IMG/VR virus record: IMGVR_UViG_3300024272_005753
Length of the DNA stretch: 64,000 bases
Source: an uncultured virus (IMG/VR IMGVR_UViG_3300024272_005753)
Lineage: Duplodnaviria > Heunggongvirae > Uroviricota > Caudoviricetes
Strand: one strand, 5' to 3'
Part shown: one piece after another, positions 1-64,000 of the stretch
Layout of the letters: the number at the start of each line of letters is the position of its first letter
Position numbering within the stretch: position 1 is the first letter of the stretch
Program-made: the position numbers and the translations under genes
Notes under the pieces: generated by a model
The model's input: only the letters and a program-made list of their open reading frames with translations
The model's database searches: none
What the model was told of the DNA's origin: nothing

Positions 1-63
1 AAGGAGCTTGGAATGCTTCAGATGAAATTAAATGAACAGATGTTGCTTGAAAGCGGAAACTAA
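1..63 (+). CDS. 3' end of upstream gene (partial), possibly toxic anion resistance TelA-like
   Basis: Open frame KELGMLQMKLNEQMLLESGN*. The TelA guess rests only on the helical tail and the XpaC-like and SBP-like neighbours. Confidence 0.3.
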   Translation, partial: KELGMLQMKLNEQMLLESGN

Positions 64-85
64 ATTTAGAAAGGAGTAGAGTATT

Positions 86-1021
86 TTGATTGTTTGGGAT
101 AGAGACTCTCAATATAAAACAAAACTTTCTCCTGAGGAAAGAGAAGATATTGCACTAAATATTTCTACTCCAAGGAGTATTAAAAAGGTCCAAAAGTTAA
201 ACAATGTTATTAATTTTATTGTGCCTATTTTTGTATTTTGGATTTTTGGTTTTAATTTGATTGCTTTCGCTATTTCTTTTATTGTTTTTGATATTATTCT
301 TTGTTTTGTTGACCAAATGACATATGTGATTTTGCCTTATCATAGAAGTAAAAATATGTCTTTGGATGCGGTTCAAAAAAGAATAGATGAATTAAAAAAG
401 GAAAAAGATAAGATTTCTAAAGATTTAACCGAATTTAGGAAAACAGAATGTAGGGAATGCCGATATCATTACTATGATAACTGTACCGATTGCAAAGATG
501 TAAGATTGGCAGTGTCTGAAATTCGTACATTAAATCAGTTTATTAAATCAGAAGAGGCTTATTTAAACAAAGAGCTAGAAAAAATCAAAGAAAAAGAAGT
601 AGAAGCAAACAATAAAACGAGCAAAGATTATTCTGACAAAAAACAATATTTGATTGATATTAGGGATAAATTAAAATATTATAAGACAAAAAAAAATATG
701 GAATTTTTGGCGCCTATTTTAAAGTCTATTAAAGTTTTGATTTCGACTTTGGAGAAGAAACCAATTGGATATACTTTGGTTTCTAATACTTTGTATATTT
801 ATCTTGATGAATTACAAAAAATATTAGAAAAATTAATATCTTTAGATGATGAGAAGAAGGAAATTTATTTAAGAGATATTGAAAAAATATCCATTGCATT
901 AAGCGAAAATATAAACAACTTGATTAATCGTATATCTAAGTTGGAAACTGAAGATATTGAAGTCAGTATCACTGTTTTATTAAATGAATTAAATAGAGAA
1001 GGAGAAGAAAAGAATGTTTAA
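86..1021 (+). CDS. Membrane protein, XpaC-like (5-bromo-4-chloroindolyl phosphate hydrolysis family), with Cys-rich insert
   Basis: RBS AAGGAG. Two N-terminal TM helices, coiled coil, CRECR...CTDC, and C-terminal LYIYLDEL...EDIEVSITVLLNEL resembling XpaC. Confidence 0.5.
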   Translation: MIVWDRDSQYKTKLSPEEREDIALNISTPRSIKKVQKLNNVINFIVPIFVFWIFGFNLIAFAISFIVFDIILCFVDQMTYVILPYHRSKNMSLDAVQKRIDELKKEKDKISKDLTEFRKTECRECRYHYYDNCTDCKDVRLAVSEIRTLNQFIKSEEAYLNKELEKIKEKEVEANNKTSKDYSDKKQYLIDIRDKLKYYKTKKNMEFLAPILKSIKVLISTLEKKPIGYTLVSNTLYIYLDELQKILEKLISLDDEKKEIYLRDIEKISIALSENINNLINRISKLETEDIEVSITVLLNELNREGEEKNV

Positions 1022-1952
1022 AGGACGAATCGGTATATGGATTAGTGTTCTTCTTTGTTGTTCTTTAATTACTGGATTAATTAAATGGGTACCTACTTGG
1101 TTCCAAGAATATGAAACAACCATTTCTATTGAAATTGATAAGGATGGAGATTTTAACGAACAAATATCTGACAAGCTTTTTGGGGATTTTAAAATGAGAA
1201 CCAGAAATTCTGGCGGGGATATTATTATTAGTGATAAGGGTAAAGATTTTGACGGCTATACAAAATATGAAAATATGCTGTATTCCCCTATTGTTATGTA
1301 TGTTGTAGCAGATATTTATGACCATCCCGATGGGTTTATTAAGGTTTCTAATAATTCCAACGCTTTTAAGGCTGACCTTTACAGTATTTTGGTAGGAATT
1401 GAAGACGGCAAAGAATGGAAGGACCTTGGAGTAAGTAATAAAATTGCAAAGGGTCCAGTAACCCTTTATATTCCAAATGAACAAAGTGGATATTATGACG
1501 ATGTAATTGATTTGTTTTATCTAACACTTAATAATGGGAATATTCCTTCAGAGGACGAAAAAGCGAATTTGGCAAATAGAGTTAATAACATCGTTTCTAA
1601 ATGCACTAAAGTTGTAGATATAACTCAGTCGGTTTATGATGAATTTAAAAACCCATCTACCAATCACAAGATATTTATTGGTCCCGAATTTTTATATCAG
1701 AGAGGTTCTGAAAGCTCTATGAGCAGAAATTATGACGATTCTTTTCAAATTGTCTATTTAACGAAGACCATTACTTTATACGCTGATATGTTTATTAAGG
1801 ACATGCAGACTGAGGAAGAAATAGATACTAGTTCGTTTATCGATGAAATTCAAGAAAACGGTAAATTTATGGATGTTACTGGTTGGAGAGTGCAGGATTC
1901 TACCTTTGATGTATCTGGTATAAGCTATGTTTATATAAAAGAACCGAATTAA
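1014..1952 (+). CDS. Membrane-anchored extracellular solute-binding-like protein
   Basis: N-terminal hydrophobic anchor. YSPIVMYV, WKDLG and PNEQSG resemble the SBP domains found in TelA/XpaC operons. Confidence 0.45.
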   Translation: MFKGRIGIWISVLLCCSLITGLIKWVPTWFQEYETTISIEIDKDGDFNEQISDKLFGDFKMRTRNSGGDIIISDKGKDFDGYTKYENMLYSPIVMYVVADIYDHPDGFIKVSNNSNAFKADLYSILVGIEDGKEWKDLGVSNKIAKGPVTLYIPNEQSGYYDDVIDLFYLTLNNGNIPSEDEKANLANRVNNIVSKCTKVVDITQSVYDEFKNPSTNHKIFIGPEFLYQRGSESSMSRNYDDSFQIVYLTKTITLYADMFIKDMQTEEEIDTSSFIDEIQENGKFMDVTGWRVQDSTFDVSGISYVYIKEPN

Positions 1953-1957
1953 AAAGG

Positions 1958-1988
1958 AAAAACTCGCTTCTTGGGAAGCGAGTTTTTT
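1958..1988. terminator. Bidirectional intrinsic terminator
   Basis: AAAAACTCGCTTC-ttgg-GAAGCGAGTTTTT between convergent genes. Confidence 0.85.
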
Positions 1989-1993
1989 GTTGC

Positions 1994-2935
1994 TTAATAG
2001 TAGAACATATCGTCATGGTGTCCGACAGTCTTTTCGCCACTGGAAGTCTCCTTATAGGCGACATTGTCCAAACTATCCATGAGTCGAGTGCACTGGCTAT
2101 CAACCATGTCAATCAGGTGCACAATATAGGCGTAGATGGTCTTAGCCTTTTCTTCGTACACGTGATGATGGCCACGGATTACTGAAAGCAGACGATAGAA
2201 AAAATCCTCATCATACAGAGATAGGATGTATTCCTTATTGTTGTACAGCAATTCGCAGCCCAGCTCACGGTGAGAAATGAAGCTGTTCTTGACGTATTGA
2301 CCCATATACAACTCGTCAATCTTACCCATGTCATGGAAGATGATGCCAGTATAAATGAGGTCCGAGAAAGGAATGAATCGAGGGTCATTCTCAATCATGG
2401 TCTTCGCCAGGCGCAACATTTTGACCGTGTGGTTAATTAGACCAGAAGGACAAGCGTCGTGCATACCCTTTGCGGCAAACTCAGTGCAGAAGCGTTCTCG
2501 AGTGTTACCAGTAATGATGTGGTTTACTAGCTCCTGAGCCTTCGCAGAAAGCACCGTCTTGACGAAGGTATCAAATTCTGCCTCAAGCTTGATTCTGTCG
2601 TGGCCAAGCAGAAAATCTGCAGGGCAATAACCGAAAATATCAGGTTCGATTTTATCCACAACAACACTGGCGGTATTGTTCCAAGTATCGATGGTACCAG
2701 CAATGCTGATAACCTTCTTGTCAGCCATGGACTTAAATTCCTCGATATGGTCGCTCCAAACCTTGAAAGGGAGAATCACTCCCTGGTCAGAGAACTGACC
2801 ACTGATAAATTGCTTGCCTGTAGAACCTGCCTTGATATCGAAGTTGTGGATATATACCACACCAGAAACCTTGGAGCCCTTCACAAGCTTGTTGTCTGCC
2901 ACCTGCTCGATGGTATCCTTAATGTTCATTTTCAT
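1994..2935 (-). CDS. YhaM/Cbf1-like OB-fold + HD-domain 3'-5' exonuclease
   Basis: OB-fold N-terminus; MHDA, GLINHT, FHDMGK, SH, GHHH and HLIDMVD motifs. Start chosen at the ATG after GGAAGGAG. Confidence 0.8.
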   Translation of the reverse strand: MKMNIKDTIEQVADNKLVKGSKVSGVVYIHNFDIKAGSTGKQFISGQFSDQGVILPFKVWSDHIEEFKSMADKKVISIAGTIDTWNNTASVVVDKIEPDIFGYCPADFLLGHDRIKLEAEFDTFVKTVLSAKAQELVNHIITGNTRERFCTEFAAKGMHDACPSGLINHTVKMLRLAKTMIENDPRFIPFSDLIYTGIIFHDMGKIDELYMGQYVKNSFISHRELGCELLYNNKEYILSLYDEDFFYRLLSVIRGHHHVYEEKAKTIYAYIVHLIDMVDSQCTRLMDSLDNVAYKETSSGEKTVGHHDDMFYY

Positions 2936-3045
2936 ATTAAATTTCTCCTTCCATATATGTCTTTCCGACCATTTTGATTTGTTACTGAACATATTAAATT
3001 TTATGTTTTTTTTATTGAATATATAATACTAGAAATTTATTTCTA

Positions 3046-3987: not shown

Positions 3988-4926
3988 ATGAATAAGAAAA
4001 TTACTTCAGCATTAGTATTAACTATGGCCGCAACAATGTCTCTTGGACTTGTTGGATGCGGTAATAAGACAGAGGAAAAGCCCCCTGTGGATAATCCTCC
4101 TGTAGTAGAGGACCAGAACACTCCTTCTACACCAGAAGTTGAAACTCCTGGTACGGAAACTCCTGACGTTGAAACCCCTGAGGTAGTAAGCGTTTCTATG
4201 GATGATGTAGTTAATACTTTGAAGAACACTTACGGTGAGAGATATCTTCCTAGCATGCCTCTTGACCAGGACACCTTCAACATGATGGTTGGTCTAACTT
4301 CTGACATGTACAGCGAATTCTATGCAGAAATGCCTATGATGAGCACTCATGCTGATAGACTTTTCATCGTTAAGACTGACAAGGTAGACGATGTTAAGGC
4401 AGTATTTGATACTTATAAGCAGAGTCTAATTGATGACACTATGCAGTATCCTATGAATATTGCCAAGATTGAAAACTCTGAGGTTTATGTAAAGAATGAT
4501 TATGTAATGTTCTTTATGCTTGGTGGTTATACCGATGAGGAGCCTGCTGGCGCTGAAAACATGACTCCTGAACAGGTTGAAGAAGCTGTTGAAGCTATGC
4601 AGACTGCATATTATGTTGAACAAATGGGTTATGGTTTAAATGCTCTTGATAAGCTATTCCTTGACGGTATAGTTCCTGAGCCTACTGCACCCGAAGTTAC
4701 AGATGAAACCGTTACAGACGAAACTGTTACTGAGGAGAATACCGAAGTGGCAGAAGGAGAAGATGTCAATACTGCTGAACCAGTAGCTGACGTTGTCGAT
4801 GAAACTTCCACTGAAGTTGATGGCACCGTTACCGATGGTGAACCTACTGAAGGTTCCGAAGAGAATACTACTGAAGAAGCATCTGATGTAGAAACTCCTG
4901 CTGAAGAAGTAACTGCTAACAACTAA
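3988..4926 (+). CDS. DUF4358-like lipoprotein with acidic low-complexity termini
   Basis: Lipobox LVGC; QYPMNIAKIENSEVYVKNDYVMF; ETP and VTDET repeats; lies upstream of MBOAT and DHHW genes. Confidence 0.65.
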   Translation: MNKKITSALVLTMAATMSLGLVGCGNKTEEKPPVDNPPVVEDQNTPSTPEVETPGTETPDVETPEVVSVSMDDVVNTLKNTYGERYLPSMPLDQDTFNMMVGLTSDMYSEFYAEMPMMSTHADRLFIVKTDKVDDVKAVFDTYKQSLIDDTMQYPMNIAKIENSEVYVKNDYVMFFMLGGYTDEEPAGAENMTPEQVEEAVEAMQTAYYVEQMGYGLNALDKLFLDGIVPEPTAPEVTDETVTDETVTEENTEVAEGEDVNTAEPVADVVDETSTEVDGTVTDGEPTEGSEENTTEEASDVETPAEEVTANN

Positions 4927-5005
4927 TTAAATTTAGTGGAAGGTTAACAAGAAACCTTCCACTATTTTTTTGTCTAAAATAAAATTTAAAGAGGTGAAAA
5001 GAAAC

Positions 5006-6415
5006 ATGGTTTTCAGTAGTCTCGTATTTTTATTTAGGTTCTTGCCTTTGTTTTTGCTTTGCTATTTTCTCGTTCCTGAGAAATATATAAAAACTAGAAA
5101 TTTAGTTTTGTTCTTATTTAGTTTAGTCTTTTATGCTTGGGGAGAGCCTATATATATATGCTTAATGATATTCTCAACGGTATTTGACTATATAAACGGG
5201 TTACTGATTGAGAAATTTGGAGCGGGCTCTAAGAACTCTAAAATGGTATTGATTGTCTCGTTAATAGGGAATTTGGGGTTATTAGGGGTTTTTAAATATA
5301 CAGACTTTATATTATCATCAATAAATTCCGTATTGGGGACATCTATTCCTATGGTTGGATTAGCTCTACCCATTGGCATTTCATTCTATACATTCCAAAC
5401 TTTATCCTATACGATAGATGTTTATCGAGGTGTAGTACCTGCTCAACATAATATTATAAGTTTTGGTGCTTATGTTGCAATGTTTCCTCAGTTAATTGCT
5501 GGTCCGATTGTTCAATTTAAAACGGTTGCAAAGGAACTCAATGAAAGAAAACATACTTGGGATAATTTTTATGTTGGAGTACGTAGATTTTGTATTGGGT
5601 TTACTAAAAAAGCGCTATTAGCCAATAATATTGGCTTTATATGGAGCGAAATATTGAAAAATTATCAAGAGGCTTCCATATTGACTTTATGGCTGGGCAT
5701 AGTTTGTTTTGCATTACAAATTTACTTCGACTTTAGTGGATATAGTGATATGGCTATTGGGCTTGGTAAAATGTGTGGGTTTACATTTCTTGAGAACTTT
5801 AATTATCCATACGTATCAAAGAGTATTACTGAGTTCTGGCGTCGTTGGCATATCAGTTTAGGCAGTTGGTTTAGAGATAATGTGTATATTCCTCTGGGAG
5901 GGAATAGAAAAGGTTATAAGAGGCAGATTTTAAATCTTGCTATTGTATGGTTATTAACTGGTTTTTGGCATGGCGCAAATTGGAATTATGTCTTGTGGGG
6001 TATATATTACGGAGCGCTTATAATTATCGAAAAGGTATTTTTGTTAAAAAAACTAGAAAAAATGCCAGCGATAATTAGTCATATATATACATTGTTTATA
6101 GTTCTTATCGGGTGGGCATTATTTGCGATTGAAGACTTTTCTATATTGGGTAATTATATGGCTGGTATGTTTGGTGCTAGTGGGTTAGCATTTATTGATA
6201 ATCAGTTCGTATATTATTTGCAAAATTATGGGATTTTGTTAATAATCGGAATGCTTGCTAGTATTGAAGTTTTTAAAATTAAAGAAACACAACTAAAACA
6301 AAAACACATTTGGATTGAAAATCTTGAAAACGTCGCAATTATTGCAATGTTTGTTATTAGTTTGGCAATGATTGTAAGTTCTACTTACAATCCATTCTTG
6401 TACTTTAGATTCTAA
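5006..6415 (+). CDS. MBOAT family O-acyltransferase (AlgI/DltB-like)
   Basis: LPIGISFYTFQ, FPQLIAGPI, YFDFSGYSDMAIG, FWRRWHISL, GFWHGA and NPFLYFRF motifs. Confidence 0.92.
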   Translation: MVFSSLVFLFRFLPLFLLCYFLVPEKYIKTRNLVLFLFSLVFYAWGEPIYICLMIFSTVFDYINGLLIEKFGAGSKNSKMVLIVSLIGNLGLLGVFKYTDFILSSINSVLGTSIPMVGLALPIGISFYTFQTLSYTIDVYRGVVPAQHNIISFGAYVAMFPQLIAGPIVQFKTVAKELNERKHTWDNFYVGVRRFCIGFTKKALLANNIGFIWSEILKNYQEASILTLWLGIVCFALQIYFDFSGYSDMAIGLGKMCGFTFLENFNYPYVSKSITEFWRRWHISLGSWFRDNVYIPLGGNRKGYKRQILNLAIVWLLTGFWHGANWNYVLWGIYYGALIIIEKVFLLKKLEKMPAIISHIYTLFIVLIGWALFAIEDFSILGNYMAGMFGASGLAFIDNQFVYYLQNYGILLIIGMLASIEVFKIKETQLKQKHIWIENLENVAIIAMFVISLAMIVSSTYNPFLYFRF

Positions 6416-6430
6416 AAGGGGGGATATAAG

Positions 6431-7549
6431 ATGAAGCAAAAAATAGTTAGTTCATTGTTCTTGTTTGTGGTATTTGGATTTTTCATTGTTAGTTTTATTA
6501 TCCCTGATAAAGATTTTTCATATAACGAAAACAGAGAATTAGCTCAGAAACCTGAATTAAGTATTGAAAATATTTTCAGCGGAAAGTTTATGGAAGAATT
6601 TGAAAGTTATGTAACTGACCAAGTATATTTGAGAGATGAGTTTGTTACATTTAGTACAAATATTAAATTATTACTTGGGCAAAAAGAAATTAATGGGGTT
6701 TATTTTTCCAACAATTATTTTGTTGAAAAATTTCAAGAAACTGATATTGATATCGAATTATTAAATAAATCCAAAGAATTTATTTCTACATTTTTGAAAA
6801 ATCATTCCAATGCTAAAATTGCAATTATTCCTACCGCTGGTGGGGTAGTAGATGGATTGTATCCAAAATATTCAAACAACGTAAATCAAGAAGAATTAAT
6901 AAAAGAAATTTATAATTCTGTTGGTTCTGCTCAGAGCATTGACATCTTTGAATATTTAAAAAATCATCAAGAAGAAAACATATATTACAGGACGGACCAC
7001 CATTGGACAACGTTGGGGGCATATTACGGCTATGAGGCTATTATGGATGCTTTTGGCATGGAGATTATAGGGTTAGATAAATACAACAAAGAAGTCGTAG
7101 ATAATAAATTTCAGGGGACTATACAATCTAAAGTGAATTATGATATTGGTTATGATGAGATTATCAAATATGTTCCCACTTTTGAAGTAGATTATTTAAT
7201 GACTTTGAATGAAGACAAGAGTACTGAAACAAATTCTTTGTATGATGAAAAGAAATTAACTAGCAAGGAGAAATATGCAGTATTTCTTGGTGGAAACAAC
7301 GCTGCAACCAGGATAAAAAATGCATCGGTTGAGAACAATAAAAAAATATTAATTATTAAGGATTCTTATAGTCATTGTATGACACCTTTTATTGTCAATA
7401 ATTATTCGGAAGTGCTTCTATTAGATATGCGATATTTTATGGGAGGCATAGATACTTTCCTTAATGGCGAAGAATTTGATGATATTTTAATTATGTATAA
7501 TTTAAAGAACCTAGTAGAAGATAGAAATTTAATTCGATTGAATAAATAA
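6431..7549 (+). CDS. DHHW family (AlgJ/AlgX-like) O-acetylation partner
   Basis: ENRELA, YYRTDHHWT and IIKDSY motifs; N-terminal anchor; directly follows the MBOAT gene. Confidence 0.85.
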   Translation: MKQKIVSSLFLFVVFGFFIVSFIIPDKDFSYNENRELAQKPELSIENIFSGKFMEEFESYVTDQVYLRDEFVTFSTNIKLLLGQKEINGVYFSNNYFVEKFQETDIDIELLNKSKEFISTFLKNHSNAKIAIIPTAGGVVDGLYPKYSNNVNQEELIKEIYNSVGSAQSIDIFEYLKNHQEENIYYRTDHHWTTLGAYYGYEAIMDAFGMEIIGLDKYNKEVVDNKFQGTIQSKVNYDIGYDEIIKYVPTFEVDYLMTLNEDKSTETNSLYDEKKLTSKEKYAVFLGGNNAATRIKNASVENNKKILIIKDSYSHCMTPFIVNNYSEVLLLDMRYFMGGIDTFLNGEEFDDILIMYNLKNLVEDRNLIRLNK

Positions 7550-10164: not shown

Positions 10165-10192
10165 GTTAATCCTCCTCAAATAATCTAAATAT

Positions 10193-51940: not shown

Positions 51941-51974
51941 AAGAGAATTTAAAATGACTTATCGAATATTAGCG

Positions 51975-54061: not shown

Positions 54062-54249
54062 ATATTCTTACCTCTTTCTTTTGTTTGTCCTGTTTTTTCG
54101 AATCCTTTTTGCTTTTATATCTTATATTATATTCGTTTTGATAATTTTTTATTGTTAGTTATGACTTTTTTGTATCGATTCTAAAAAGACTAGATTTTTG
54201 AACAGAAATGTAATATAATTAGGATATACTTATAGAAGGAGATATAAAT

Positions 54250-54453: not shown

Positions 54454-54470
54454 CGGCGGAAGGAGAAAAA

Positions 54471-55385: not shown

Positions 55386-55399
55386 AGGAGTGATATAAT

Positions 55400-55621
55400 T
55401 TGTTACTCATTGTGTTTTATATATTGACGTTGTTTATTGTTTTCGGAGTTACATATTGGCTCAGAAAACATTTGTTAGATGTATTTGTGAAAAATAATAA
55501 TGAAAATAAAAGTTTAGAAATTATTGATTGTGTTCTTCTTCGAGATTCTGGATGTGAAATTGATAAAATAATTAGAATGCTAGAAGAAGAGGAAGTAACA
55601 ATCAATACAATTAATTTATGA
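55400..55621 (+). CDS. Small membrane protein
   Basis: RBS AAGGAG; N-terminal TM helix. Confidence 0.45.
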   Translation: MLLIVFYILTLFIVFGVTYWLRKHLLDVFVKNNNENKSLEIIDCVLLRDSGCEIDKIIRMLEEEEVTINTINL

Positions 55622-57082
55622 TTGGAGTTTTGGGGAATGTTGAACTTTTTTAAAAACAACAAGATTCCACTATTTGTTACGCTTACATTTTTAATCATCT
55701 GTACGTCTCTTTTTATGCTTGACCCAGATGTTTATTGGCATATTAAATCGGGAGAATGGATTATTCAAAATGGGATTCCACAAAAAGATACTTTTTCTTA
55801 TTGGGGAGGTAATTTTTTAGCTCACGAATGGTTATTTGATATATTGTTATATGTCTTATATTCTGTAGGTGGATTTGTTGGAATGCAAGGATTTTTCTTT
55901 GGTATTTTAGGGGTTACTTTATTCCTTTGTATGAATATAGCAAATAAAAAAGACAACCCTAATTTTCTTGTTTATTTCATTCCTTTTATCTTGTTATTAA
56001 GATACGTAGGGTTAATTTCTGCCAGACCACACATGATATCTTTGCTTTTTATTGTGATTGAACTATACATATTGCATAATAAGAAGTATAATTTGTTGTG
56101 GTTATTACCAATATTTACACTATTTATTGCGAATGTTCATGGTGGTTCAGTATTGATTTTGGCATTAATACTTGTTGTATATTTGGTTGATTATATTTTT
56201 AACAATTTGGGGGATTTAGATAAAAAATTTATCATCAAAAATATCGTAACAGTTCTTATTATGGTAGTTACTATGGTAATTACCCCTTATGGAGCCGAGT
56301 GTGCTCTTTATGGCACTAATTTACCTGATTTAGTCATGGACAATGTTACTGAGTGGTTGCCATTAATTCAGGGTTCTTTTGATATTCCTATGTTATTCTT
56401 GGCGCTTGTTCCTTTGGCTTGTATGGCTTATACAAAAGATGCGAAACTCATTGATATACTTATGCTTTGTATGGGTTTTATGATGTGTATTATTTGGTGT
56501 CGTATGATTACAATATATGTTTGTATATATTTAATTTATGGGTCTGGTTATATTCATAGGACCTTTGTAGATATATTTAACAAATTAAAATTAAACTTTG
56601 GGGTTAGATTAAAAAAGGCAAATCAACAAATTGTTGATACTACAATTTTTGTAGTATTAGCAGTTTTATTGGCATTTAATATTTCTGATATTTCGTTTGA
56701 AAAGTCTGAGGAGAAAGCGAGCGTTTCTCCTACAATAATTAAAAATTACATTGAAGAAAACAATATTGATGTTACTAATAACATCATGTTGAATGATTAT
56801 AATTTTGGGGGATATTTTATTTTTAATGGATACAAAGTATTTATGGATGGGCGAAATGACGTTTATCTAGATACTTTTGGAAGCCCAAATGTTCTTCCTG
56901 ATTATTTTGATATTGATAACGTTGAAAAAAATATTGATGAATTATTAGACAAATATGATGTCAAATATTTTGCAATTTATACAGATTCTGACCTCCATAG
57001 TTATCTGGTAGACAATGGGATTGCAAAAGAATTGGTTTTTGATGAAAAATATGTGTTCTTAGAAAAAATAAATAAATCCTAG
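55622..57082 (+). CDS. Polytopic membrane protein, GT-C glycosyltransferase-like
   Basis: DPDVYWHI..G, HEWL, ARP, ANVHGG and FMDGRNDVY motifs; many TM helices (true start may be 55637). Confidence 0.55.
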   Translation: MEFWGMLNFFKNNKIPLFVTLTFLIICTSLFMLDPDVYWHIKSGEWIIQNGIPQKDTFSYWGGNFLAHEWLFDILLYVLYSVGGFVGMQGFFFGILGVTLFLCMNIANKKDNPNFLVYFIPFILLLRYVGLISARPHMISLLFIVIELYILHNKKYNLLWLLPIFTLFIANVHGGSVLILALILVVYLVDYIFNNLGDLDKKFIIKNIVTVLIMVVTMVITPYGAECALYGTNLPDLVMDNVTEWLPLIQGSFDIPMLFLALVPLACMAYTKDAKLIDILMLCMGFMMCIIWCRMITIYVCIYLIYGSGYIHRTFVDIFNKLKLNFGVRLKKANQQIVDTTIFVVLAVLLAFNISDISFEKSEEKASVSPTIIKNYIEENNIDVTNNIMLNDYNFGGYFIFNGYKVFMDGRNDVYLDTFGSPNVLPDYFDIDNVEKNIDELLDKYDVKYFAIYTDSDLHSYLVDNGIAKELVFDEKYVFLEKINKS

Positions 57083-57111
57083 ATTATATTTTAAAAAGGA
57101 GCTGTTTTAAA

Positions 57112-58944
57112 ATGATGAAAAAGAGTTTTTCTATTCTTTTGACGTTATTGTTATGTTTTAGTATGCTTGCTGGTTGTGGAGGAAATAAAGATATAAAGAC
57201 TCCTAACGTTCCAGAATCATCTGATATTGGGAACCAACAGCAAGAAAACATTGAGAAAATTGAGAATGTTTTAGAAATTGATGGGATTAAAATTGAATTA
57301 TCTGATACTGAGGTATTAGTTGATGGCGTAATTGCATCCACTGATAATACTCAAGCTGTTTATGTCGCTAATGACATAGTTTATTATGAAGAAGGCAAGG
57401 ATTTCACTTATGGTGAAGGCACCGAATCTGATGCACATAGCAAGGAAGATGCGGATAAGCATACAGTAGTTCATATTACTAAGCCTGGTAATTATGTTTT
57501 GAGTGGTAAAATTTTAGCTGGACAGGTTGCTGTTGATTTAGGTGAAGAGGCAAAAACGGATGCCAATGCAGTAGTTACGCTCTATTTAAATGGAGTTGAT
57601 ATTACAAATACTGTTGCTCCTGGTATTATTTTTTATAACGTATATGAATGTTATCCTGATGCTACTGAGGAAACAGCCACTAAGGATGTGGATACCTCTG
57701 CTGCAGGTGCTAATGTTGTAATTGTTGATGATACTACAAATACAGTAAGTGGCTCTTATGTTGCCCGTATTTATAAGGAAGACTCTGTGGTTTTGAGCGA
57801 AGATGGTAAATCGGTTGAAGATGCTAAGAAACTTCATAAGTATGATGCTGCTTTCTATTCTAAAATGACTATGAATGTAACTGGTGGAGATAAAGGAACT
57901 GGTATTCTTAATATTCAGGCAGAAAATGAAGGGCTTGATAGCGAACTTCATTTAACTATTAATGGCGGTATTATCAATATTGAATCTGGTAATGATGGTA
58001 TTAATACAAACGAAGATTATGTTTCTGTTACTACTATCAATGGTGGTACTGTTAATATTTTGGTTGATGGTTCTACTGGCGAAGGTGATGGTATCGACTC
58101 TAACGGTTGGTTAGTTATTAATGGTGGTACTGTTATTGCTCAGGCTTGTAGTATTAGTGGTGATGCTGGTATCGATTCTGATATGGGAATTCATATTAAT
58201 GGTGGTAAAGTGTTTGCTACTGGTAATATGCTTGACCATATTTCTGAAAGCGAAGAAACATTTGCTGTATTTAATTTTTCAGAATCTCAAGATTCTGGAG
58301 TTTATACATTAAAGAATTCTAACGGTGTTATTGTCACTGAGCAAGAAATAATGAATAACTTTATGTATTTAATTATTGCTGGTGACCTTGCTGCTGGTGA
58401 ATATACACTTTGGAAAGAAGATGTTCAATTTGCTGGTGCATTTGTTGAAGGTATGAGCGGTATGGGCCGTCCTGGTATGGGCGGTGGAATGAGACTTAAA
58501 GGAGAAATTCCAGAAGGTTTTAACCCAGAAACAATGAAGCCTATGAATCCTCCCGAGGGTGGTTTTATTCCTGAAGGTGGCGAACGTCCTGCTGATGGGG
58601 ATGTTCGTATTCCAGAGTTTCCTGTTGGTGGTATGCCTGGTGAGAAAGTTGAAATTCCTACTGTTCCTAGCGAAATCGGGAACAATTGGAGAGTTGATAA
58701 TGTAGAAGTTGGGATAACTGGTGGCAGTGCTATTACTATGGAACGTCCTGAGAAACCTGATAGAGAGAATATGACTCCTCCTGAAGGTGGCTTCCAAGGA
58801 AGTGGTGCTGGATTTGAAGGGCCTCATAGACCTGGTTCTGGTAGTGGATGGGGTGCTGGTTCTTCTGAAGTTTCCACAACTTTTAATATTGTAGATGGCG
58901 CGAACTACTTTGTTTCTGTACAGAAATCTGTAGCTGTAGATTAA
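57112..58944 (+). CDS. Lipoprotein with Cthe_2159-like (DUF4353) carbohydrate-binding beta-helix
   Basis: Lipobox LAGC; ITKPGNYVLSG; repeated INGG...DGIDSNG; Pro/Gly/Met-rich insert. Confidence 0.8.
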   Translation: MMKKSFSILLTLLLCFSMLAGCGGNKDIKTPNVPESSDIGNQQQENIEKIENVLEIDGIKIELSDTEVLVDGVIASTDNTQAVYVANDIVYYEEGKDFTYGEGTESDAHSKEDADKHTVVHITKPGNYVLSGKILAGQVAVDLGEEAKTDANAVVTLYLNGVDITNTVAPGIIFYNVYECYPDATEETATKDVDTSAAGANVVIVDDTTNTVSGSYVARIYKEDSVVLSEDGKSVEDAKKLHKYDAAFYSKMTMNVTGGDKGTGILNIQAENEGLDSELHLTINGGIINIESGNDGINTNEDYVSVTTINGGTVNILVDGSTGEGDGIDSNGWLVINGGTVIAQACSISGDAGIDSDMGIHINGGKVFATGNMLDHISESEETFAVFNFSESQDSGVYTLKNSNGVIVTEQEIMNNFMYLIIAGDLAAGEYTLWKEDVQFAGAFVEGMSGMGRPGMGGGMRLKGEIPEGFNPETMKPMNPPEGGFIPEGGERPADGDVRIPEFPVGGMPGEKVEIPTVPSEIGNNWRVDNVEVGITGGSAITMERPEKPDRENMTPPEGGFQGSGAGFEGPHRPGSGSGWGAGSSEVSTTFNIVDGANYFVSVQKSVAVD

Positions 58945-62315: not shown

Positions 62316-62348
62316 TCCCGCGCTTAATTTTTAGAAAGGAGAAAAAAT

Positions 62349-62816
62349 ATGAATAAAGAATTTAATAGATATAACTTATATTGTGAATGTGCAAGAGAAG
62401 CTATAAAGTTTCAGGGGTTAGGGGATGATATAGATGAAGATGTATTGAATTTTACATTTGATGCGCTAACGCATGAAACAGATTTAGATTGGGTTGATAT
62501 TAAAACAGACGATGGAGAGTTAATTGGTTTTTTAGTTGTTTCTAGAAGTCCTGAATTATTTCCTGGTATAGAATATGATGTAGATTGTATGTATATACTT
62601 CCTGATTATCGTAGACAGGGATATATGTCTAGGATGATTAAAAAATACTTGGAAGATAATCCTGGAACTTATTCTTATAGTGTTTTAGTTGGGAATGATA
62701 TATCTTTTAGTTTTTGGGATAAGATAATTCATGATAACAATTGTGTTCCTATTGGATTAAAGAATCCATACATATACAAAGAATATGTATTTGGTGCGTT
62801 CAAAAAGGAGGTATAA
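62349..62816 (+). CDS. GNAT family acetyltransferase
   Basis: LIGFL, MYILPDYRRQGY (acetyl-CoA binding) and N...SFW motifs. Confidence 0.8.
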   Translation: MNKEFNRYNLYCECAREAIKFQGLGDDIDEDVLNFTFDALTHETDLDWVDIKTDDGELIGFLVVSRSPELFPGIEYDVDCMYILPDYRRQGYMSRMIKKYLEDNPGTYSYSVLVGNDISFSFWDKIIHDNNCVPIGLKNPYIYKEYVFGAFKKEV

Positions 62817-62818
62817 AC

Positions 62819-62965
62819 ATGGATAAATTTCAAACAATTAGACCAATTGTTCTTGGTCTTGTAATTCGTGATGGCAAAGTTCTTGTCAGAGAAGGTTACG
62901 ACACAAAGAAAAATCAAACTTTCTATCGTGCACTTGGTGGGGGTATTGAATTTGATGAAAAATAA
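62819..62965 (+). pseudogene. Truncated NUDIX hydrolase
   Basis: Strong RBS AAGGAGG; IRPIVLGLVIRDGKVLV...YRALGGGIEFDEK* stops at the start of the Nudix box. Confidence 0.7.
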
Positions 62966-63650
62966 AAGATATTTTCTATATAATTATCGAGAATTTGTTC
63001 CTGAAATGTCTTATTATTTTTTCAGGCCTTCCAGAAAGGAAACCCGTAAGAGACCTTTAATTATTTGGTTGCATGGTTCAGGGGAGGTTGCTGTTGGAAG
63101 AGAAGCATTTCTTTCTGCGGGGCTTCCTGATGTTCTAAATAATTGGACGTTAAAGCCTTTTAGTGCATATATTCTTTGTCCTCAGTTAATGGTTGAAGAC
63201 GATATTTGGGCAAAAGAAGAAAATGTAGAAAATCTTATGAGGCTTATCAATCATGTGATTGTTCTTAATGAAGATAAAATCGATAGGAACAGAATTATTC
63301 TCGCTGGTCATAGTTTGGGCGCTATGGGAGCCATGTATGTCGCTGAAAGAGTACATAAATATTTTGCTTGTATGTGCGTTTTAAGTGGATATGAATGTGG
63401 AGTAGATTTAAGCGAAATTGAGACTCCTGTTCTCGGTATTGTTGGAACGGAAGATGCTGGTGAAGACCCAGAAAGTGTTCGTTTCATGAATTGGGATTTT
63501 TGTTTTGCTCTTGGTGACCACACTGTTTGTGATTTCGAAGCATCGCATGAAGATATTCCTAGAGTAGCATTCTTAGATGATGCTAATTTGGATGGACGTT
63601 CCGACCTTATTGAGTGGATGTACGCATATAAATTATCAGATAGGATGTAA
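62955..63650 (+). CDS. Alpha/beta hydrolase (esterase/peptidase)
   Basis: PLIIWLHGSGE, ILCPQ, IDRNRI and nucleophile motif GHSLG. Confidence 0.85.
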   Translation: MKNKRYFLYNYREFVPEMSYYFFRPSRKETRKRPLIIWLHGSGEVAVGREAFLSAGLPDVLNNWTLKPFSAYILCPQLMVEDDIWAKEENVENLMRLINHVIVLNEDKIDRNRIILAGHSLGAMGAMYVAERVHKYFACMCVLSGYECGVDLSEIETPVLGIVGTEDAGEDPESVRFMNWDFCFALGDHTVCDFEASHEDIPRVAFLDDANLDGRSDLIEWMYAYKLSDRM

Positions 63651-63753
63651 AATCCAATACAATTTGTAAAATTTACCACTATTTCTAAAATCTCTTGAAA
63701 AAATTCTAAAAATATGTTATTATATTAACAGAAATAAGGAAGGAGATTTTAAT

Positions 63754-64000
63754 ATGAAAATTAAGGATTATAATGCAGCTATCCTGTGTGAAGAATATGA
63801 AACGGCTTTATCTGGTAGTGAATGTTTTTTCCCTGGCACTAATTTAACTATGAAAATTCGACTAGGCCAGGAGCCCGTTGAAGATTATAATAAGCGAAGA
63901 GATGCTTGTCTTGAAGCAATGAGAAAGGGCGCTATCATTTTTAAAATTGAAGACCGTAAAGATATGTATTTCATTGACCTATATCGAGATGGTAAGGTCG
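63754..64000 (+). CDS. Hypothetical protein (partial, runs off the window)
   Basis: TTGAAA-17-TATTAT promoter at 63695-63723; RBS AAGGAG; frame stays open to the end of the window. Confidence 0.6.
   Translation, partial: MKIKDYNAAILCEEYETALSGSECFFPGTNLTMKIRLGQEPVEDYNKRRDACLEAMRKGAIIFKIEDRKDMYFIDLYRDGKV

What the first reader, a model, noticed from the sequence alone, without database searches (positions are those of the whole stretch)
1..64000. Probable giant extrachromosomal element of a Firmicute with its own divergent copies of cell-core machinery
Seen: secY/secE, ftsH, radA, ruvC, recD2, a sigma70, an S1-domain protein, spoVG, abrB and yhaM-like genes all lack their usual neighbours (no spc ribosomal genes around secY, no ruvAB, no disA/clpC beside radA, no dnaG beside the sigma, no nusG after secE). 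They are mixed with replication-relaxation, RepL-like, primase-like, Tad and pilin-like genes and many hypotheticals. Established: those neighbourhoods are strongly conserved in Firmicute chromosomes. Inference: a megaplasmid or jumbo-phage-like replicon that supplies its own transcription, secretion, proteolysis and recombination functions, possibly an undescribed class.
Basis: partly seen in the sequence, partly recalled or inferred. Interest (0 to 1): 0.85.

Follow-up and report, generated by a model that had tools for sequence, protein, structure and literature searches.

The report
Giant gut plasmid carrying own SecYE
This 64-kb stretch is part of a very large plasmid-like element from an animal-gut Firmicute; it belongs to a family of megaplasmids already sequenced in cultured bacteria, and it is unusual in carrying its own protein-export channel genes.

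Summary
The listed genes are real and lack their chromosomal neighbours. The window has no tRNA, rRNA, ribosomal-protein or phage structural gene. The "giant extrachromosomal element" reading holds; "undescribed class" and "jumbo phage" do not.

The 423-aa replication-relaxation protein (47964-49235) has full-length homologues on 11 megaplasmids (127-722 kb) of cultured Bacillota, including C. perfringens pJFP838A, B. thuringiensis BTB_502p and P. polymyxa pSC2. It also matches metagenome contigs of up to 523 kb.

Eleven of 59 window proteins are shared with all three megaplasmids that I fetched whole: FtsH, RecD2, an S1 protein and its partner, VWA, AAA_5, primase, TadB/TadC, a pilin-like protein and the relaxase-like marker. 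The window's FtsH groups with plasmid FtsHs rather than with chromosomal ones.

The marker matches the description of InoC, the marker of the oral "Inocle" elements (2025), and PF13814 is the MOBC relaxase domain.

What sets this lineage apart is a secY-secE operon. Its SecY belongs to a 46-member clade outside all chromosomal SecYs sampled, and no homologue was found on five cultured megaplasmids. A 2026 preprint reports SecYGE on unrelated "Hodor" megaplasmids. This scan had already noted the same operon on other DNA (e1-5746154).

Verdict: a new variant of a known kind, of moderate interest.

The parts
1994..2992 (-). HD-domain, YhaM-like phosphohydrolase
   Evidence: Pfam HD 1.5e-9. NCBIfam YhaM 63.6 bits, far below the cut-off of 460. 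No homologue in three whole megaplasmids.
3988..7549 (+). Envelope-acylation cluster: DUF4358 lipoprotein, MBOAT/DltB-like acyltransferase, DHHW protein
   Evidence: Pfam. DltB model 156 bits, below the cut-off of 375. The nearest named MBOAT relatives are Oscillospiraceae/Clostridia MAG proteins at about 59-61% identity.
8332..10296 (-). Plasmid-type FtsH (AAA + M41 protease, membrane-anchored)
   Evidence: Pfam AAA, Peptidase_M41 and lid. TIGR01241 498.7 bits, below the cut-off of 600. 48-57% identical to FtsH on 5 of 5 cultured megaplasmids, against 40-48% to Lachnospiraceae chromosomal FtsH. Groups with six plasmid FtsHs in the tree.
12904..13530 (+). Prepilin (type IV leader) peptidase
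   Evidence: Pfam Peptidase_A24 5.9e-9. 7 hydrophobic segments.
13894..14529 (+). Pilin-like small membrane protein, conserved backbone gene
   Evidence: Weak T4SS_pilin hit, E 0.0059. Homologues in all three whole megaplasmids and in L091 and L135.
18291..19238 (-). Sigma-70 family factor with regions 1.2, 2, 3 and 4 (group 1/2-like)
   Evidence: Pfam. Best NCBIfam models are RpoS/RpoD at 192-199 bits, far below their cut-offs. 34-36% identical to Lachnospiraceae sigma factors. No strong homologue on 5 cultured megaplasmids. 31-32% homologues beside the marker in L106, L111 and L113.
21277..22119 (+). TnpB (IS605-type) remnant
   Evidence: Only the C-terminal TNB domain matches: Pfam E 9e-4, NCBIfam guided_TnpB 3.8e-7.
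22156..24558 (-). RecD2 SF1B helicase, backbone gene
   Evidence: TIGR01448 582 bits, above the cut-off of 500. Full-length homologues at 34-36% on 5 of 5 cultured megaplasmids and in 11 of 80 metagenome loci.
26894..27184 (-). SpoVG-like regulator
   Evidence: Pfam SpoVG 1.8e-19. NCBIfam 62.8 bits, below the cut-off of 108.
29862..31226 (-). RadA/Sms
   Evidence: TIGR00416 401.2 bits against a cut-off of 403.05. 35-37% identical to Lachnospiraceae RadA. 45% identical to a RadA on the 722-kb Aneurinibacillus plasmid; found on 1 of 5 plasmids.
33710..35421 (+). S1-domain protein plus a conserved 309-aa partner (possible second replication-relaxation-like protein)
   Evidence: Pfam S1. Both have homologues in all three whole megaplasmids, lying next to RecD2 there. 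ESM Atlas places the partner nearest to 'replication-relaxation family' clusters at 0.96, but hhalign to the marker family gives only 7% probability.
35487..40976 (-). VWA/CobT-like, AAA_5 ATPase and DnaG/DUF3854 primase-like block (GC 0.41-0.47), backbone
   Evidence: Pfam. GC profile. All three genes have homologues in all three whole megaplasmids. All three lie together in that order in pJFP838A and pESW1602; in BTB_502p only VWA and AAA_5 are adjacent.
43550..44239 (+). RuvC-like Holliday-junction resolvase
   Evidence: Pfam RuvC 4.6e-21. NCBIfam 97.5 bits, below the cut-off of 163. 43% homologue on BTB_502p only.
44844..45086 (+). AbrB/MazE-fold DNA-binding protein
   Evidence: Pfam MazE_antitoxin 7.9e-10. 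NCBIfam AbrB domain 38.7 bits, above the cut-off of 28.3.
45837..47727 (-). TadC-like and TadB-like pilus platform proteins, divergent from the marker gene
   Evidence: Weak T2SSF hits. 4-5 hydrophobic segments. Homologues at 31-46% in L084-L086 and in all three megaplasmids, where they follow CpaF/TadA in a Tad operon.
47964..49235 (+). InoC-like replication-relaxation protein: candidate MOBC-type relaxase and family marker
   Evidence: Pfam PF13814 at residues 21-207. 57 homologues, all from unnamed metagenomes. 105 metagenome relatives. 11 cultured megaplasmids. AlphaFold model pLDDT 89: wHTH (TubR Z 10.6) plus restriction-endonuclease fold (BstEII Z 9.0).
49239..49266 (+). Perfect 11-nt hairpin followed by a T run: terminator-like site between the marker gene and secY
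   Evidence: the repeat finder I1, 100% complementary.
49418..50936 (+). secY-secE operon (SecY 447 aa; SecE 53 aa, starting 14 nt after secY)
   Evidence: Pfam SecY 251.6 bits over the whole model. TIGR00967 304.5 bits, above the cut-off of 253.6. SecY2 models fall far below their cut-offs. SecE 31.8 bits, above the cut-off of 22.7. The SecY clade has 46 rows.
51119..58944 (+). Envelope cargo: secreted Ig-like protein, CDF metal exporter (54471-55385), 9-TM protein, Cthe_2159 lipoprotein (57112-58944)
   Evidence: Pfam. Hydrophobicity scan and lipobox-like N-termini.

Best explanation
The window is an internal 64-kb piece of a giant, low-GC, plasmid-like extrachromosomal replicon. Its likely size, a few hundred kb, is inferred from relatives. 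It comes from an uncultured Bacillota bacterium, probably a member of the Clostridia, in an animal gut.

Shown by homology, synteny and trees:
- It belongs to a phylum-wide megaplasmid family.
- The family's conserved backbone comprises an InoC-like PF13814 protein beside a Tad-type pilus operon, a plasmid-specific FtsH, a RecD2-S1-partner cluster, and a VWA-AAA_5-primase cluster.

Inferred:
- The PF13814 protein (wHTH plus PD-(D/E)XK nuclease fold) acts as a MOBC-type relaxase. It would nick an oriT near its own gene and hand the DNA to a VirD4-type coupling protein, which in relatives is encoded within a few kb of the marker.
- RecD2 and the primase-like protein serve transfer or replication.
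- The sigma factor, SpoVG and AbrB let the element run its own transcription programme.

This particular uncultured clade has also kept a canonical-type secY-secE operon, acquired once and inherited vertically. At least 22 of the 59 window proteins look like membrane proteins, lipoproteins or secreted proteins. The likeliest role of SecYE is therefore a plasmid-supplied translocon core that uses the host SecA and SRP to insert and export the element's own envelope proteins, independently of the host's SecY. The plasmid FtsH would act as the matching membrane-protein quality control. This role is inference and is untested.
For: - The window has no tRNA or Rfam match and no phage structural PHROG.
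- The marker family has 57 members, all from unnamed metagenome sources. Five of their longest-contig lengths (5,251; 6,575; 20,266; 137,636; 464,774 bp) equal those of SecY-family members.
- There are 105 metagenome relatives; among the 80 kept are contigs of 270-523 kb.
- Eleven cultured-strain plasmids of 127-722 kb carry a full-length homologue at 28-35% identity.
- pJFP838A and BTB_502p show prepilin peptidase, pilins, TadC, TadB, CpaF, CpaE, CpaB, CpaE and HTH running divergently from hyp, Replic_Relax and a methyltransferase. L084 and L086 show the same core layout (CpaE-like, CpaB, CpaE-like, CpaF, TadB/TadC-like, HTH, then the marker), plus a VirD4-like protein and topoisomerase III within 10 kb downstream.
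- 18 of 59 window proteins hit at least one of three whole megaplasmids, and 11 hit all three. RecD2-S1-partner clustering is kept in all three; VWA-AAA_5-primase clustering is kept in two.
- Homologues of megaplasmid genes lie near both ends of the window, at 3092-3793 and 60496-62315.
- FtsH tree: the window plus 6 plasmid FtsHs are separated from 8 chromosomal FtsHs by a 100/99 split.
- SecY tree: the window plus P0001-P0045 form one clade (SH-aLRT 94). That clade lies outside 60 Lachnospiraceae-group rows and 23 other rows.
- The marker tree places the window in a 46-row uncultured clade with support 100. Its branching agrees with the SecY tree for the 5 contig-matched pairs.
- The A2 profile found no match in 401 Lachnospiraceae species genomes.
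- PF13814 is classed as PD-(D/E)XK (PMC3424549, passages). It is the MOBC relaxase superfamily, partnered with VirD4 coupling proteins (PMC5357655, passages).
- Fold of the marker.
- Envelope load: 14 multi-TM proteins plus 8 with an N-terminal signal or anchor, out of 59.
Against: - Only 64 kb is visible. Circularity, total size, a replication initiator, partition genes, VirB4 and a coupling protein were not seen in the window.
- No whole assembly is held.
- The Tad set in the window is incomplete: CpaF, CpaB and CpaE are absent.
- MOB-suite, as given by PLSDB, types all 11 cultured relatives as non-mobilizable.
- No nicking or transfer has been shown for any member.
- The host is unknown. 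SecY affinity points towards the Lachnospiraceae side, but the MBOAT cargo gene points to Oscillospiraceae/Clostridia.
- The FtsH tree has only Lachnospiraceae chromosomal references.
- The SecY and marker trees are quick single-model trees.
- The proposed role of SecYE is inference only.
Confidence: 0.85

Rival explanations
1. The stretch lies in a large integrative element or genomic island inside a bacterial chromosome (an integrated relative of these plasmids), not in a free replicon.
For: The ends of the element are not in the window. IS and TnpB remnants are present. One Lachnospiraceae genome carries a sub-cut-off FtsH paralogue that groups with the plasmid FtsHs, so backbone genes can sit in chromosomal assemblies.
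Against: The five relatives whose records were opened are circular plasmids, and all 11 come from the plasmid collection. No integrase or recombinase family was found in the window. The marker profile hit 0 of 401 Lachnospiraceae species genomes. Relatives sit on contigs of 270-523 kb, consistent with whole elements.
Confidence: 0.07
2. It is part of the chromosome of an unrecognised, fast-evolving, small-genome Firmicute lineage related to Lachnospiraceae whose gene order is scrambled.
For: The SecY clade branches as a deep lineage next to Lachnospiraceae. Some SecY relatives lie on contigs of 465-652 kb. The SecY passes the canonical equivalog cut-off.
Against: The 64 kb holds no tRNA, rRNA or ribosomal protein, and 32 of 60 ORFs have no Pfam family. 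secY sits beside a relaxase-like gene and TadB/TadC rather than rplO/adk. 11 backbone genes are shared with bona fide plasmids of hosts that have their own chromosomes. FtsH groups with plasmid FtsHs.
Confidence: 0.05
3. It is a jumbo phage or phage-plasmid genome.
For: Many hypothetical proteins. PHROG hits to sigma factor, RecD/Dda-like helicase, RuvC, CobT/CobS-like, primase and NinI-like phosphatase families. Giant plasmids have been misfiled as huge phages before (PMC12934698, sections read).
Against: No PHROG of the head, tail, packaging or lysis categories among the 59 ORFs at E<=1e-5. No relative of SecY or the marker in IMG/VR. No marker homologue in 50,697 phage records. The relatives are plasmids.
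Confidence: 0.03

Closest known systems
Megaplasmids of cultured Bacillota: C. perfringens pJFP838A (404 kb), B. thuringiensis Bt407 BTB_502p (502 kb), Clostridioides sp. pESW1602 (306 kb), P. polymyxa pSC2 (510 kb), Aneurinibacillus plasmid (722 kb)
   Same: They carry a full-length PF13814 marker at 33-35% identity. Three of them were fetched whole: 11 of 59 window proteins are shared with all three, RecD2-S1-partner clustering is conserved in all three, and VWA-AAA_5-primase clustering in two. All five carry a plasmid-type FtsH. They are low in GC (25-31%) and mostly hypothetical proteins (PMC4747519 and PMC3569317, passages).
   Different: None of the five has SecY or a strong homologue of the window's sigma factor. 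Only one has RadA, and of the three fetched whole only BTB_502p has RuvC. In pJFP838A and BTB_502p the complete Tad operon lies divergent from the marker, and in pESW1602 downstream of it. In the window only TadB/TadC lie there. Their original papers described each plasmid as unique, not as part of a family.
Inocles (Kiguchi et al. 2025, PMC12340149)
   Same: Giant plasmid-like elements of a Firmicute with GC about 32%. Their single-copy marker InoC has an N-terminal PF13814 domain and is about 454 aa. They carry a RecD-like helicase, an RpoS/SigA-type sigma factor, IS elements and many envelope proteins (sections 7-11 and Supplementary Data 1 read). A 16-row clade of the marker tree has the Inocle gene list around the marker: contigs of 21-338 kb, marker 453 aa in L134, with sortase, a coupling protein, topoisomerase III and an RNase_T exonuclease adjacent in L134 and L140.
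   Different: The window's marker is only 24-30% identical to that clade, and Inocle membership was defined at >70%. The window's habitat is animal faeces, not human saliva. Supplementary Data 1 has no entry named SecY, FtsH, RadA, SpoVG, RuvC, AbrB or 'translocase'. No Inocle sequence was available here, so that clade is a probable identification, not a proven one.
Hodor conjugative megaplasmids (Yuan et al. 2026 preprint, PMC12934698)
   Same: Gut megaplasmids of more than 300 kb from Bacillota with their own sec genes. Those authors propose that the sec genes export plasmid-encoded surface proteins. The relaxase and helicase are separate genes (sections 5-7 read).
   Different: Hodors have GC 44.6-47.1%, Rep_3 and ParA/B/M, a MOBH-like HD relaxase, and a hyp-SecY-SecG-SecE cluster with trigger factor and sortase B. 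The window has GC about 33%, a PF13814 marker and secY-secE only, with none of those neighbours. This is a different backbone, so SecY was acquired independently.
Accessory Sec system (SecA2/SecY2) of Gram-positive cocci
   Same: A second SecY copy in one cell, dedicated to particular substrates.
   Different: The window's SecY scores 105.8 and 101.3 bits on the SecY2 models (cut-offs 353 and 249.6) but 304.5 on canonical SecY (cut-off 253.6). The window has no SecA2, Asp or glycosyltransferase genes.

Membership tests
PF13814/Tad megaplasmid family of Bacillota (pJFP838A / BTB_502p type) | Full-length PF13814 'replication-relaxation' protein of about 420-470 aa | tested here: met
   PF13814 1.1e-18. 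28-35% identity over at least 91% of the length to 11 megaplasmid proteins. Falls inside the family tree.
PF13814/Tad megaplasmid family of Bacillota (pJFP838A / BTB_502p type) | Tad-type pilus operon divergent from the marker gene | tested here: inconclusive
   TadB- and TadC-like genes are in that position. CpaF, CpaB, CpaE and the HTH regulator are not in the window. The prepilin peptidase and pilin-like gene lie 33 kb away.
PF13814/Tad megaplasmid family of Bacillota (pJFP838A / BTB_502p type) | Shared backbone genes: plasmid-type FtsH, RecD2-S1-partner, VWA-AAA_5-primase | tested here: met
   All have homologues in three of three whole plasmids. RecD2-S1-partner clustering is kept in all three, and VWA-AAA_5-primase clustering in two.
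PF13814/Tad megaplasmid family of Bacillota (pJFP838A / BTB_502p type) | Autonomous circular replicon of several hundred kb | not testable with these tools
   Only 64 kb is held and there is no assembly. The closest relatives lie on contigs of up to 138 kb, and more distant ones on contigs of up to 523 kb.
Inocle | InoC marker with >70% identity and >50% coverage to known InoC | tested here: inconclusive
   Domain and position fit. No authentic InoC sequence was available. Identity to the probable Inocle clade is 24-30%, which would fail the 70% rule.
Inocle | Human oral habitat, Streptococcus host | tested here: not met
   The stretch is held (34-100% of sampled words) by eight 2018 runs labelled 'feces metagenome'; the tool states that its gut and feces runs are of animals. 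Six of the eight may be the source itself. SecY and cargo affinities are with Clostridia.
Inocle | Sortase A and a bifunctional glycosyltransferase/PBP conserved in all Inocles | tested here: inconclusive
   Neither family is among the Pfam hits of the 59 window ORFs, but most of the element is outside the window.
Hodor megaplasmids | Rep_3 and ParA/B/M backbone, GC 44.6-47.1%, MOBH-like HD relaxase | tested here: not met
   GC is 0.28-0.47 in 2-kb bins, mostly about 0.30-0.35. The window has no Rep_3 or Par family. Its HD protein matches YhaM over the whole model.
Hodor megaplasmids | hyp-SecY-SecG-SecE with trigger factor and sortase B nearby | tested here: not met
   Only secY-secE is present. 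The flanks are the PF13814 gene and a secreted unknown protein.
MOBC relaxases | PF13814 domain with a PD-(D/E)XK nuclease fold and an N-terminal HTH | tested here: met
   Pfam. The model has pLDDT 89.1. Residues 2-95 form a winged helix (TubR, Z 10.6, rmsd 2.0, 84 aligned). Residues 121-268 have a restriction-endonuclease fold (BstEII, Z 9.0, rmsd 3.5, 135 aligned). Foldseek gave no match at E<=0.001.
MOBC relaxases | Site-specific nicking at oriT and partnership with a VirD4 coupling protein | not testable with these tools
   A coupling protein lies beside or within 6 kb of the marker in L084, L086, L134 and L140, but none is in the window. No convincing oriT repeat was found upstream.
Canonical SecY (TIGR00967 equivalog) | Score above the curated cut-off over the whole model | tested here: met
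   304.5 bits against a cut-off of 253.6, model positions 2-410 of 414. 9 hydrophobic segments by a crude scan. 53 invariant columns across 23 family members.
Accessory SecY2 | Score above the SecY2 cut-offs; SecA2/Asp neighbours | tested here: not met
   105.8 bits against 353, and 101.3 against 249.6. No such neighbours.
FtsH (TIGR01241 equivalog) | Score above the cut-off of 600 bits | tested here: not met
   498.7 bits. Plasmid FtsHs score 538-561 and chromosomal ones 744-838. The domain architecture (TM, AAA, M41) is complete.
Tailed (jumbo) phage | Terminase, portal, capsid and tail genes | tested here: not met
   No PHROG of a structural or packaging category among the 59 ORFs at E<=1e-5. 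This covers the window only.

The most novel reading that the evidence does not exclude
The PF13814/Tad megaplasmids, including the oral Inocles and plasmids long sequenced in Bacillus, Paenibacillus and Clostridium, may form one ancient, phylum-wide lineage of giant plasmids with its own vertically inherited housekeeping paralogues such as a plasmid FtsH. Within it, one uncultured gut clade captured secY-secE once, near the base of the Lachnospiraceae, and has kept it over family-level timescales. That would give a plasmid-owned translocon that makes the element's large envelope proteome independent of the host's SecY, which could help it work in new hosts.
Probability: 0.35. Interest if true: 0.7.

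Novelty: new variant of a known kind. Interest (0 to 1): 0.5.

Why it matters
Three things would matter if they hold.

1. Elements published as "entirely novel" one at a time (BTB_502p in 2013, pJFP838A in 2016, Inocles in 2025) appear to share one backbone. Cultured, tractable hosts could then be used to study the uncultured gut and oral giants.

2. FtsH, usually read as a host housekeeping gene, here forms a lineage specific to plasmids. This suggests a conserved plasmid function in membrane-protein quality control.

3. A second, independent case of plasmid-borne SecYE, beside the Hodors, suggests that very large Gram-positive plasmids repeatedly recruit the translocon core. That makes the role of a plasmid-owned secretion channel directly testable.

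None of this changes the basic picture set by the 2025-2026 papers.

Tried and rejected
- Whole-genome context: no assembly is held for the window.
- Whole metagenome records behind L084, L086, L134, L140 and L154 could not be searched. Whether those giants carry SecY elsewhere therefore stays open. SecY was not within 10 kb of the marker in any of the 80 loci.
- Single-protein SecY scans of genome contigs and viral contigs found no relative.
It is therefore no evidence that the family is absent from species genomes.
- blastn of the marker-secY stretch against PLSDB found no match.
- SecY tblastn against the phage records returned only bacterial-type SecYs at 29-36%, mostly in unverified or unannotated records. 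The one context inspected in PLSDB, a Lachnospiraceae 'plasmid', is a full spc ribosomal operon.
- oriT: only imperfect AT-rich inverted repeats lie upstream of the marker gene.
- RepL-like gene: not found.
- Second Replic_Relax paralogue (34492-35421): the Atlas lead was not confirmed by hhalign (7% probability).
- PADLOC: no convincing defence system. There were only HD/Cas3-like, PDC-M11B and DnaG-like domain hits.
- Expression: no RNA holder was listed.
- pXO16 as a relative (recalled idea): it was not among the PLSDB hits, and the review passages searched gave nothing relevant.
- Host assignment from the MBOAT cargo gene was inconclusive: named hits reach only about 60%.

Full report
WHAT IS IN THE WINDOW

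The 64 kb has low GC: 0.28-0.47 in 2-kb bins, mostly about 0.30-0.35. GC skew is positive on the + strand almost throughout, so no replication origin or terminus switch is visible.

From the 110 ORFs of at least 80 aa I kept 59 non-overlapping ones. They cover 89.7% of the window, 34 on the + strand and 25 on the - strand.

There is no tRNA or tmRNA and no Rfam family at gathering score. Of 60 ORFs sent to Pfam, 28 had a family at E<=0.001 and 32 had none. None of the families was a ribosomal protein.

No PHROG in a structural, packaging or lysis category matched at E<=1e-5.

Searches confirm:
- YhaM-like HD protein (1994-2992)
- FtsH (8332-10296)
- prepilin peptidase (12904-13530)
- a sigma-70 with regions 1.2 to 4 (18291-19238)
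- RecD2 (22156-24558)
- SpoVG (26894-27184)
- RadA (29862-31226)
- S1-domain protein (33710-34477)
- a DnaG/DUF3854 primase-like protein (39696-40976)
- RuvC (43550-44239)
- AbrB (44844-45086)
- a replication-relaxation protein (47964-49235)
- SecY (49418-50761)
- a 53-aa SecE starting 14 nt after secY (50775-50936; 31.8 bits against a cut-off of 22.7)

None sits in its usual chromosomal context. For comparison, a Lachnospiraceae record shows the canonical rplO-secY-adk-map-infA order.

A RepL-like gene was not found, even at E<=1.

THESE COPIES ARE DIVERGENT

Scores against the NCBIfam equivalog models:
- FtsH: 498.7 bits against a cut-off of 600
- RadA: 401.2 against 403.05
- RuvC: 97.5 against 163
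- SpoVG: 62.8 against 108
- YhaM: 63.6 against 460
- sigma factor: 192 against 572 for RpoD
- RecD2: 582 against 500 (passes)
- SecY: 304.5 against 253.6 (passes)

Only RecD2 and SecY pass their cut-offs.

Against five Lachnospiraceae genomes the identities are 40-48% for FtsH, 35-37% for RadA and 34-36% for the sigma factor.

THE KEY GENE IS THE 423-AA PF13814 PROTEIN

In the 5.8-billion-protein collection it has only 57 homologues, all from unnamed metagenome sources. SecY has a graded family of unnamed relatives at 93-43% identity, before chromosomal Lachnospiraceae SecYs appear at about 38-41%.

Five longest-contig lengths coincide between the two families: 5,251; 6,575; 20,266; 137,636; and 464,774 bp. 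The two genes therefore travel on the same contigs.

A profile of the marker (A2) found 105 relatives in metagenome contigs, of which 80 were kept. They include contigs of 523, 426, 374, 370, 369, 338, 277, 272 and 270 kb.

The marker found nothing in IMG/VR and nothing in 50,697 phage records. It found nothing in 401 sampled Lachnospiraceae species genomes.

It did hit 11 plasmids of cultured Bacillota of 127-722 kb, each at 28-35% identity over at least 91% of the length:
- Brevibacillus (414 kb)
- P. polymyxa pSC2 (510 kb, two records)
- Aneurinibacillus (722 kb)
- P. thiaminolyticus (360 kb)
- Clostridioides sp. pESW1602 (306 kb)
- C. difficile BI1 (301 kb)
- B. thuringiensis Bt407 BTB_502p (502 kb)
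- C. perfringens pJFP838A (404 kb)
- Jeotgalibacillus (603 kb)
- Geobacillus (127 kb)

A SHARED BACKBONE

In pJFP838A and BTB_502p the marker sits in the same layout. A Tad-type pilus operon runs one way: prepilin peptidase, small pilins, TadC, TadB, CpaF ATPase, CpaE-like, CpaB and CpaE-like, ending with an HTH regulator. The other way run a small ORF, the marker and a DNA methyltransferase.

The two largest metagenome relatives, L084 and L086, have the same core layout. They also carry a ribosome-hibernation factor, a VirD4-type coupling protein and topoisomerase III within 10 kb.

I fetched pESW1602, pJFP838A and BTB_502p whole and searched them with all 59 window proteins. Eighteen proteins hit at least one plasmid, and 11 hit all three:
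- FtsH
- the pilin-like protein 13894-14529
- RecD2
- the S1 protein
- its 309-aa neighbour 34492-35421
- the VWA protein
- the AAA_5 ATPase
- the primase-like protein
- the TadC-like protein
- the TadB-like protein
- the marker

RecD2-S1-partner clustering is kept in all three plasmids. VWA-AAA_5-primase clustering is kept in pJFP838A and pESW1602.

Homologues of plasmid genes lie near both ends of the window, so the whole window is element DNA. The GC-richer block at 35.5-41 kb is conserved backbone and not a foreign insert.

FtsH

All five cultured megaplasmids searched carry an FtsH that is 48-57% identical to the window's. That is closer than any Lachnospiraceae chromosomal FtsH.

On the TIGR01241 model, chromosomal FtsHs score 744-838 bits, plasmid FtsHs 538-561, and the window's 498.7.

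I built a 16-row IQ-TREE tree with the C20 mixture model. The window plus six plasmid FtsHs form a group with support 87/98. Together with one sub-cut-off paralogue from a Lachnospiraceae genome, they are split from eight chromosomal FtsHs with support 100/99.

Caveat: the chromosomal references are Lachnospiraceae only.

SecY-SecE

The SecY tree has 130 rows:
- the window
- P0001-P0047
- 14 chosen from P0048-P0120
- 65 of the 80 GTDB loci that gave a 400-480-aa ORF
- 3 loci from the phage collection

It is a quick LG+G4 tree. The window and P0001-P0045 form one clade with SH-aLRT 94 and a stem of 0.21. That clade joins the rest at a three-way node between 60 Lachnospiraceae-group rows and 23 other Bacillota/Patescibacteria rows. 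The plasmid SecYs are not nested among chromosomal orthologues. Their internal depth is comparable to that of the whole Lachnospiraceae set.

No SecY homologue was found on the five cultured megaplasmids. My own tblastn against the three whole plasmids also found none. None lies within 10 kb of the marker in the 80 metagenome loci.

In the marker tree (98 rows, quick) the window lies in a 46-row uncultured clade with support 100 and a stem of 0.43. That clade includes the marker from the 465-kb contig that also carries a SecY. For the five contig-matched pairs, the branching agrees between the two trees.

The simplest reading is one acquisition of secY-secE at the base of this clade, followed by vertical inheritance.

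The gene looks functional. It covers the full model, scores above the canonical cut-off, and has 53 invariant columns across 23 members. It is not a SecY2.

A perfect hairpin with a T run (49239-49266) separates secY-secE from the marker gene.

WHAT THE MARKER PROBABLY DOES

PF13814 was assigned to the PD-(D/E)XK nucleases (PMC3424549, passages read). It is the MOBC relaxase superfamily in CONJscan, found with VirD4 coupling proteins (PMC5357655, passages read).

An AlphaFold model built from A2 has mean pLDDT 89.1 and pTM 0.88. Foldseek gave no PDB match at E<=0.001.

The full-library aligner gave two matches:
- residues 2-95, a winged helix: TubR, Z 10.6, rmsd 2.0, 84 aligned
- residues 121-268, a restriction-endonuclease fold: BstEII, Z 9.0, rmsd 3.5, 135 aligned

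In L134 and L140 a TraG/VirD4-type protein is the immediate neighbour of the marker. In L084 and L086 one lies within 6 kb.

I therefore read the marker as a candidate MOBC relaxase, by inference. MOB-suite, as given by PLSDB, calls all 11 cultured relatives non-mobilizable. No convincing oriT repeat was seen upstream.

RELATION TO PUBLISHED CLASSES

Inocles (PMC12340149; sections 7-11, data availability and Supplementary Data 1 read) are 245-395-kb circular elements of oral Streptococcus with GC 32%. They are defined by InoC, a single-copy protein of about 454 aa with an N-terminal PF13814 domain. They carry a RecD-like helicase, an RpoS/SigA sigma factor, PolC, DnaE, gyrase, topoisomerase 3, sortase A, VirB4 and VirD4.

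A 16-row clade of my marker tree fits that list. It includes contigs of up to 338 kb. In L134, whose marker is 453 aa, and in L140 the marker lies with sortase, a coupling protein, topoisomerase III and an RNase_T exonuclease. I could not obtain authentic Inocle sequences, so this is a probable identification.

The window's marker is only 24-30% identical to that clade. The Inocle annotation table has no SecY, FtsH, RadA, SpoVG, RuvC, AbrB or 'translocase' entry.

Hodors (PMC12934698; sections 5-7 read) are gut megaplasmids with hyp-SecY-SecG-SecE, trigger factor and sortases. They have a different backbone (Rep_3, ParABM, MOBH-like relaxase) and GC of 45-47%. Plasmid-borne SecYE is therefore already in print, but in an unrelated lineage.

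The papers on BTB_502p (PMC3569317) and pJFP838A (PMC4747519), of which I read passages, describe each plasmid as unique and about 70% hypothetical. My searches found no paper that unites these plasmids. Subscription journals are not covered by the library.

That note pointed me to the Hodor preprint.

HABITAT AND HOST

The marker-secYE stretch is held (34-100% of sampled words) by eight 2018 runs labelled 'feces metagenome', and the tool states that its gut and feces runs are of animals. Six of the eight may be the source itself.

SecY affinity is towards the Lachnospiraceae side. The MBOAT cargo gene is closest to Oscillospiraceae/Clostridia MAG proteins at about 60%. The host is unresolved beyond probable Clostridia.

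HOW IT MOST LIKELY WORKS

Shown:
- membership of the megaplasmid family
- the backbone genes
- plasmid-specific FtsH and SecY lineages

Inferred:
- autonomous low-copy replication and Tad/T4SS-assisted transfer, with the PF13814 protein as relaxase
- the element's own sigma factor, SpoVG and AbrB for transcription control
- RadA, RuvC and RecD2 for recombinational upkeep of a very large replicon

A crude hydrophobicity scan finds 14 multi-TM proteins and 8 with an N-terminal signal or anchor among the 59. Four of these have lipobox-like N-termini.

This heavy envelope load is a plausible reason to carry SecYE and FtsH. The plasmid would supply its own translocon core and membrane-protein quality control, so that its envelope proteins can be made in whatever host it enters. 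This last step is untested.

VERDICT

- 'Giant extrachromosomal element' is supported.
- 'Jumbo phage' is rejected.
- 'Undescribed class' is not supported.

It is a new variant of a known kind: an uncultured gut clade of a known megaplasmid family, carrying SecYE, RadA and a sigma factor. Interest is moderate.

Noticed in passing
window 34492-35421: A 309-aa protein conserved at 40-44% in all three whole megaplasmids, always beside the S1 protein and RecD2. ESM Atlas puts it nearest to 'replication-relaxation family' clusters (0.96), but hhalign to the marker family gives only 7% probability. It may be a second, shorter relaxase-like protein that pairs with RecD2.
   Followed up: partly
window 35487-40976: The GC-richer block (0.41-0.47 against about 0.30 elsewhere) looks like a foreign insert. 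In fact it is the conserved VWA, AAA_5 and primase-like backbone cluster.
   Followed up: yes
window 21277-22119: A 280-aa ORF that keeps only the C-terminal TNB domain of a TnpB (IS605-type) nuclease: an IS remnant. An intact TnpB lies near the marker in L134, and one lies beside the marker in pSC2.
   Followed up: no
(P0123/P0007, P0128/P0003, P0167/P0029): On contig-matched pairs, SecY diverges faster than the marker at short range (69% against 87%; 79% against 88%) but more slowly at long range (45% against 32%). This is odd for a normally very conserved protein. It may mean relaxed or diversifying selection on the plasmid SecY.
   Followed up: no
L244 (G001:C7:905967-910670): One Lachnospiraceae genome has a third FtsH paralogue that scores below the TIGR01241 cut-off (558.6 bits). 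It groups, on a long branch, with the plasmid FtsHs rather than with its own chromosomal copies. It may be a captured plasmid-type FtsH.
   Followed up: partly
L142, L144, L152-L157: Marker homologues also occur on contigs of 183-272 kb with GC 45-56%. The family is therefore not confined to low-GC hosts.
   Followed up: no
L084 14023-14559; L086 12630-13346: The 523-kb and 426-kb relatives encode a ribosome hibernation factor (S30AE/HPF) a few kb from the marker. This is another translation-related gene on a plasmid.
   Followed up: no
L245 (NZ_CP143948.1, labelled a 252-kb plasmid of Agathobacter rectalis): This PLSDB 'plasmid' carries the complete spc ribosomal-protein operon with secY, adk, map, infA and rpoA. 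It is either a mislabelled chromosome piece or an essential secondary replicon.
   Followed up: partly
(H1-H6, H11-H12): Several GenBank 'phage' records marked UNVERIFIED_ORG contain ordinary bacterial SecY genes. This points to host contamination in those records.
   Followed up: no
(P0214, P0223, P0234, P0245, P0268): Relatives of the window's MBOAT gene at 61-67% identity lie on contigs of 301-434 kb, the size range of whole megaplasmids. The envelope-acylation cluster may be common cargo of related elements.
   Followed up: no
window 7584-8258: A 224-aa protein with an ASCH-like N-terminus matches the PADLOC candidate-defence family PDC-M11B (4.4e-13) and phrog_3136. Its function is unknown.
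   Followed up: no
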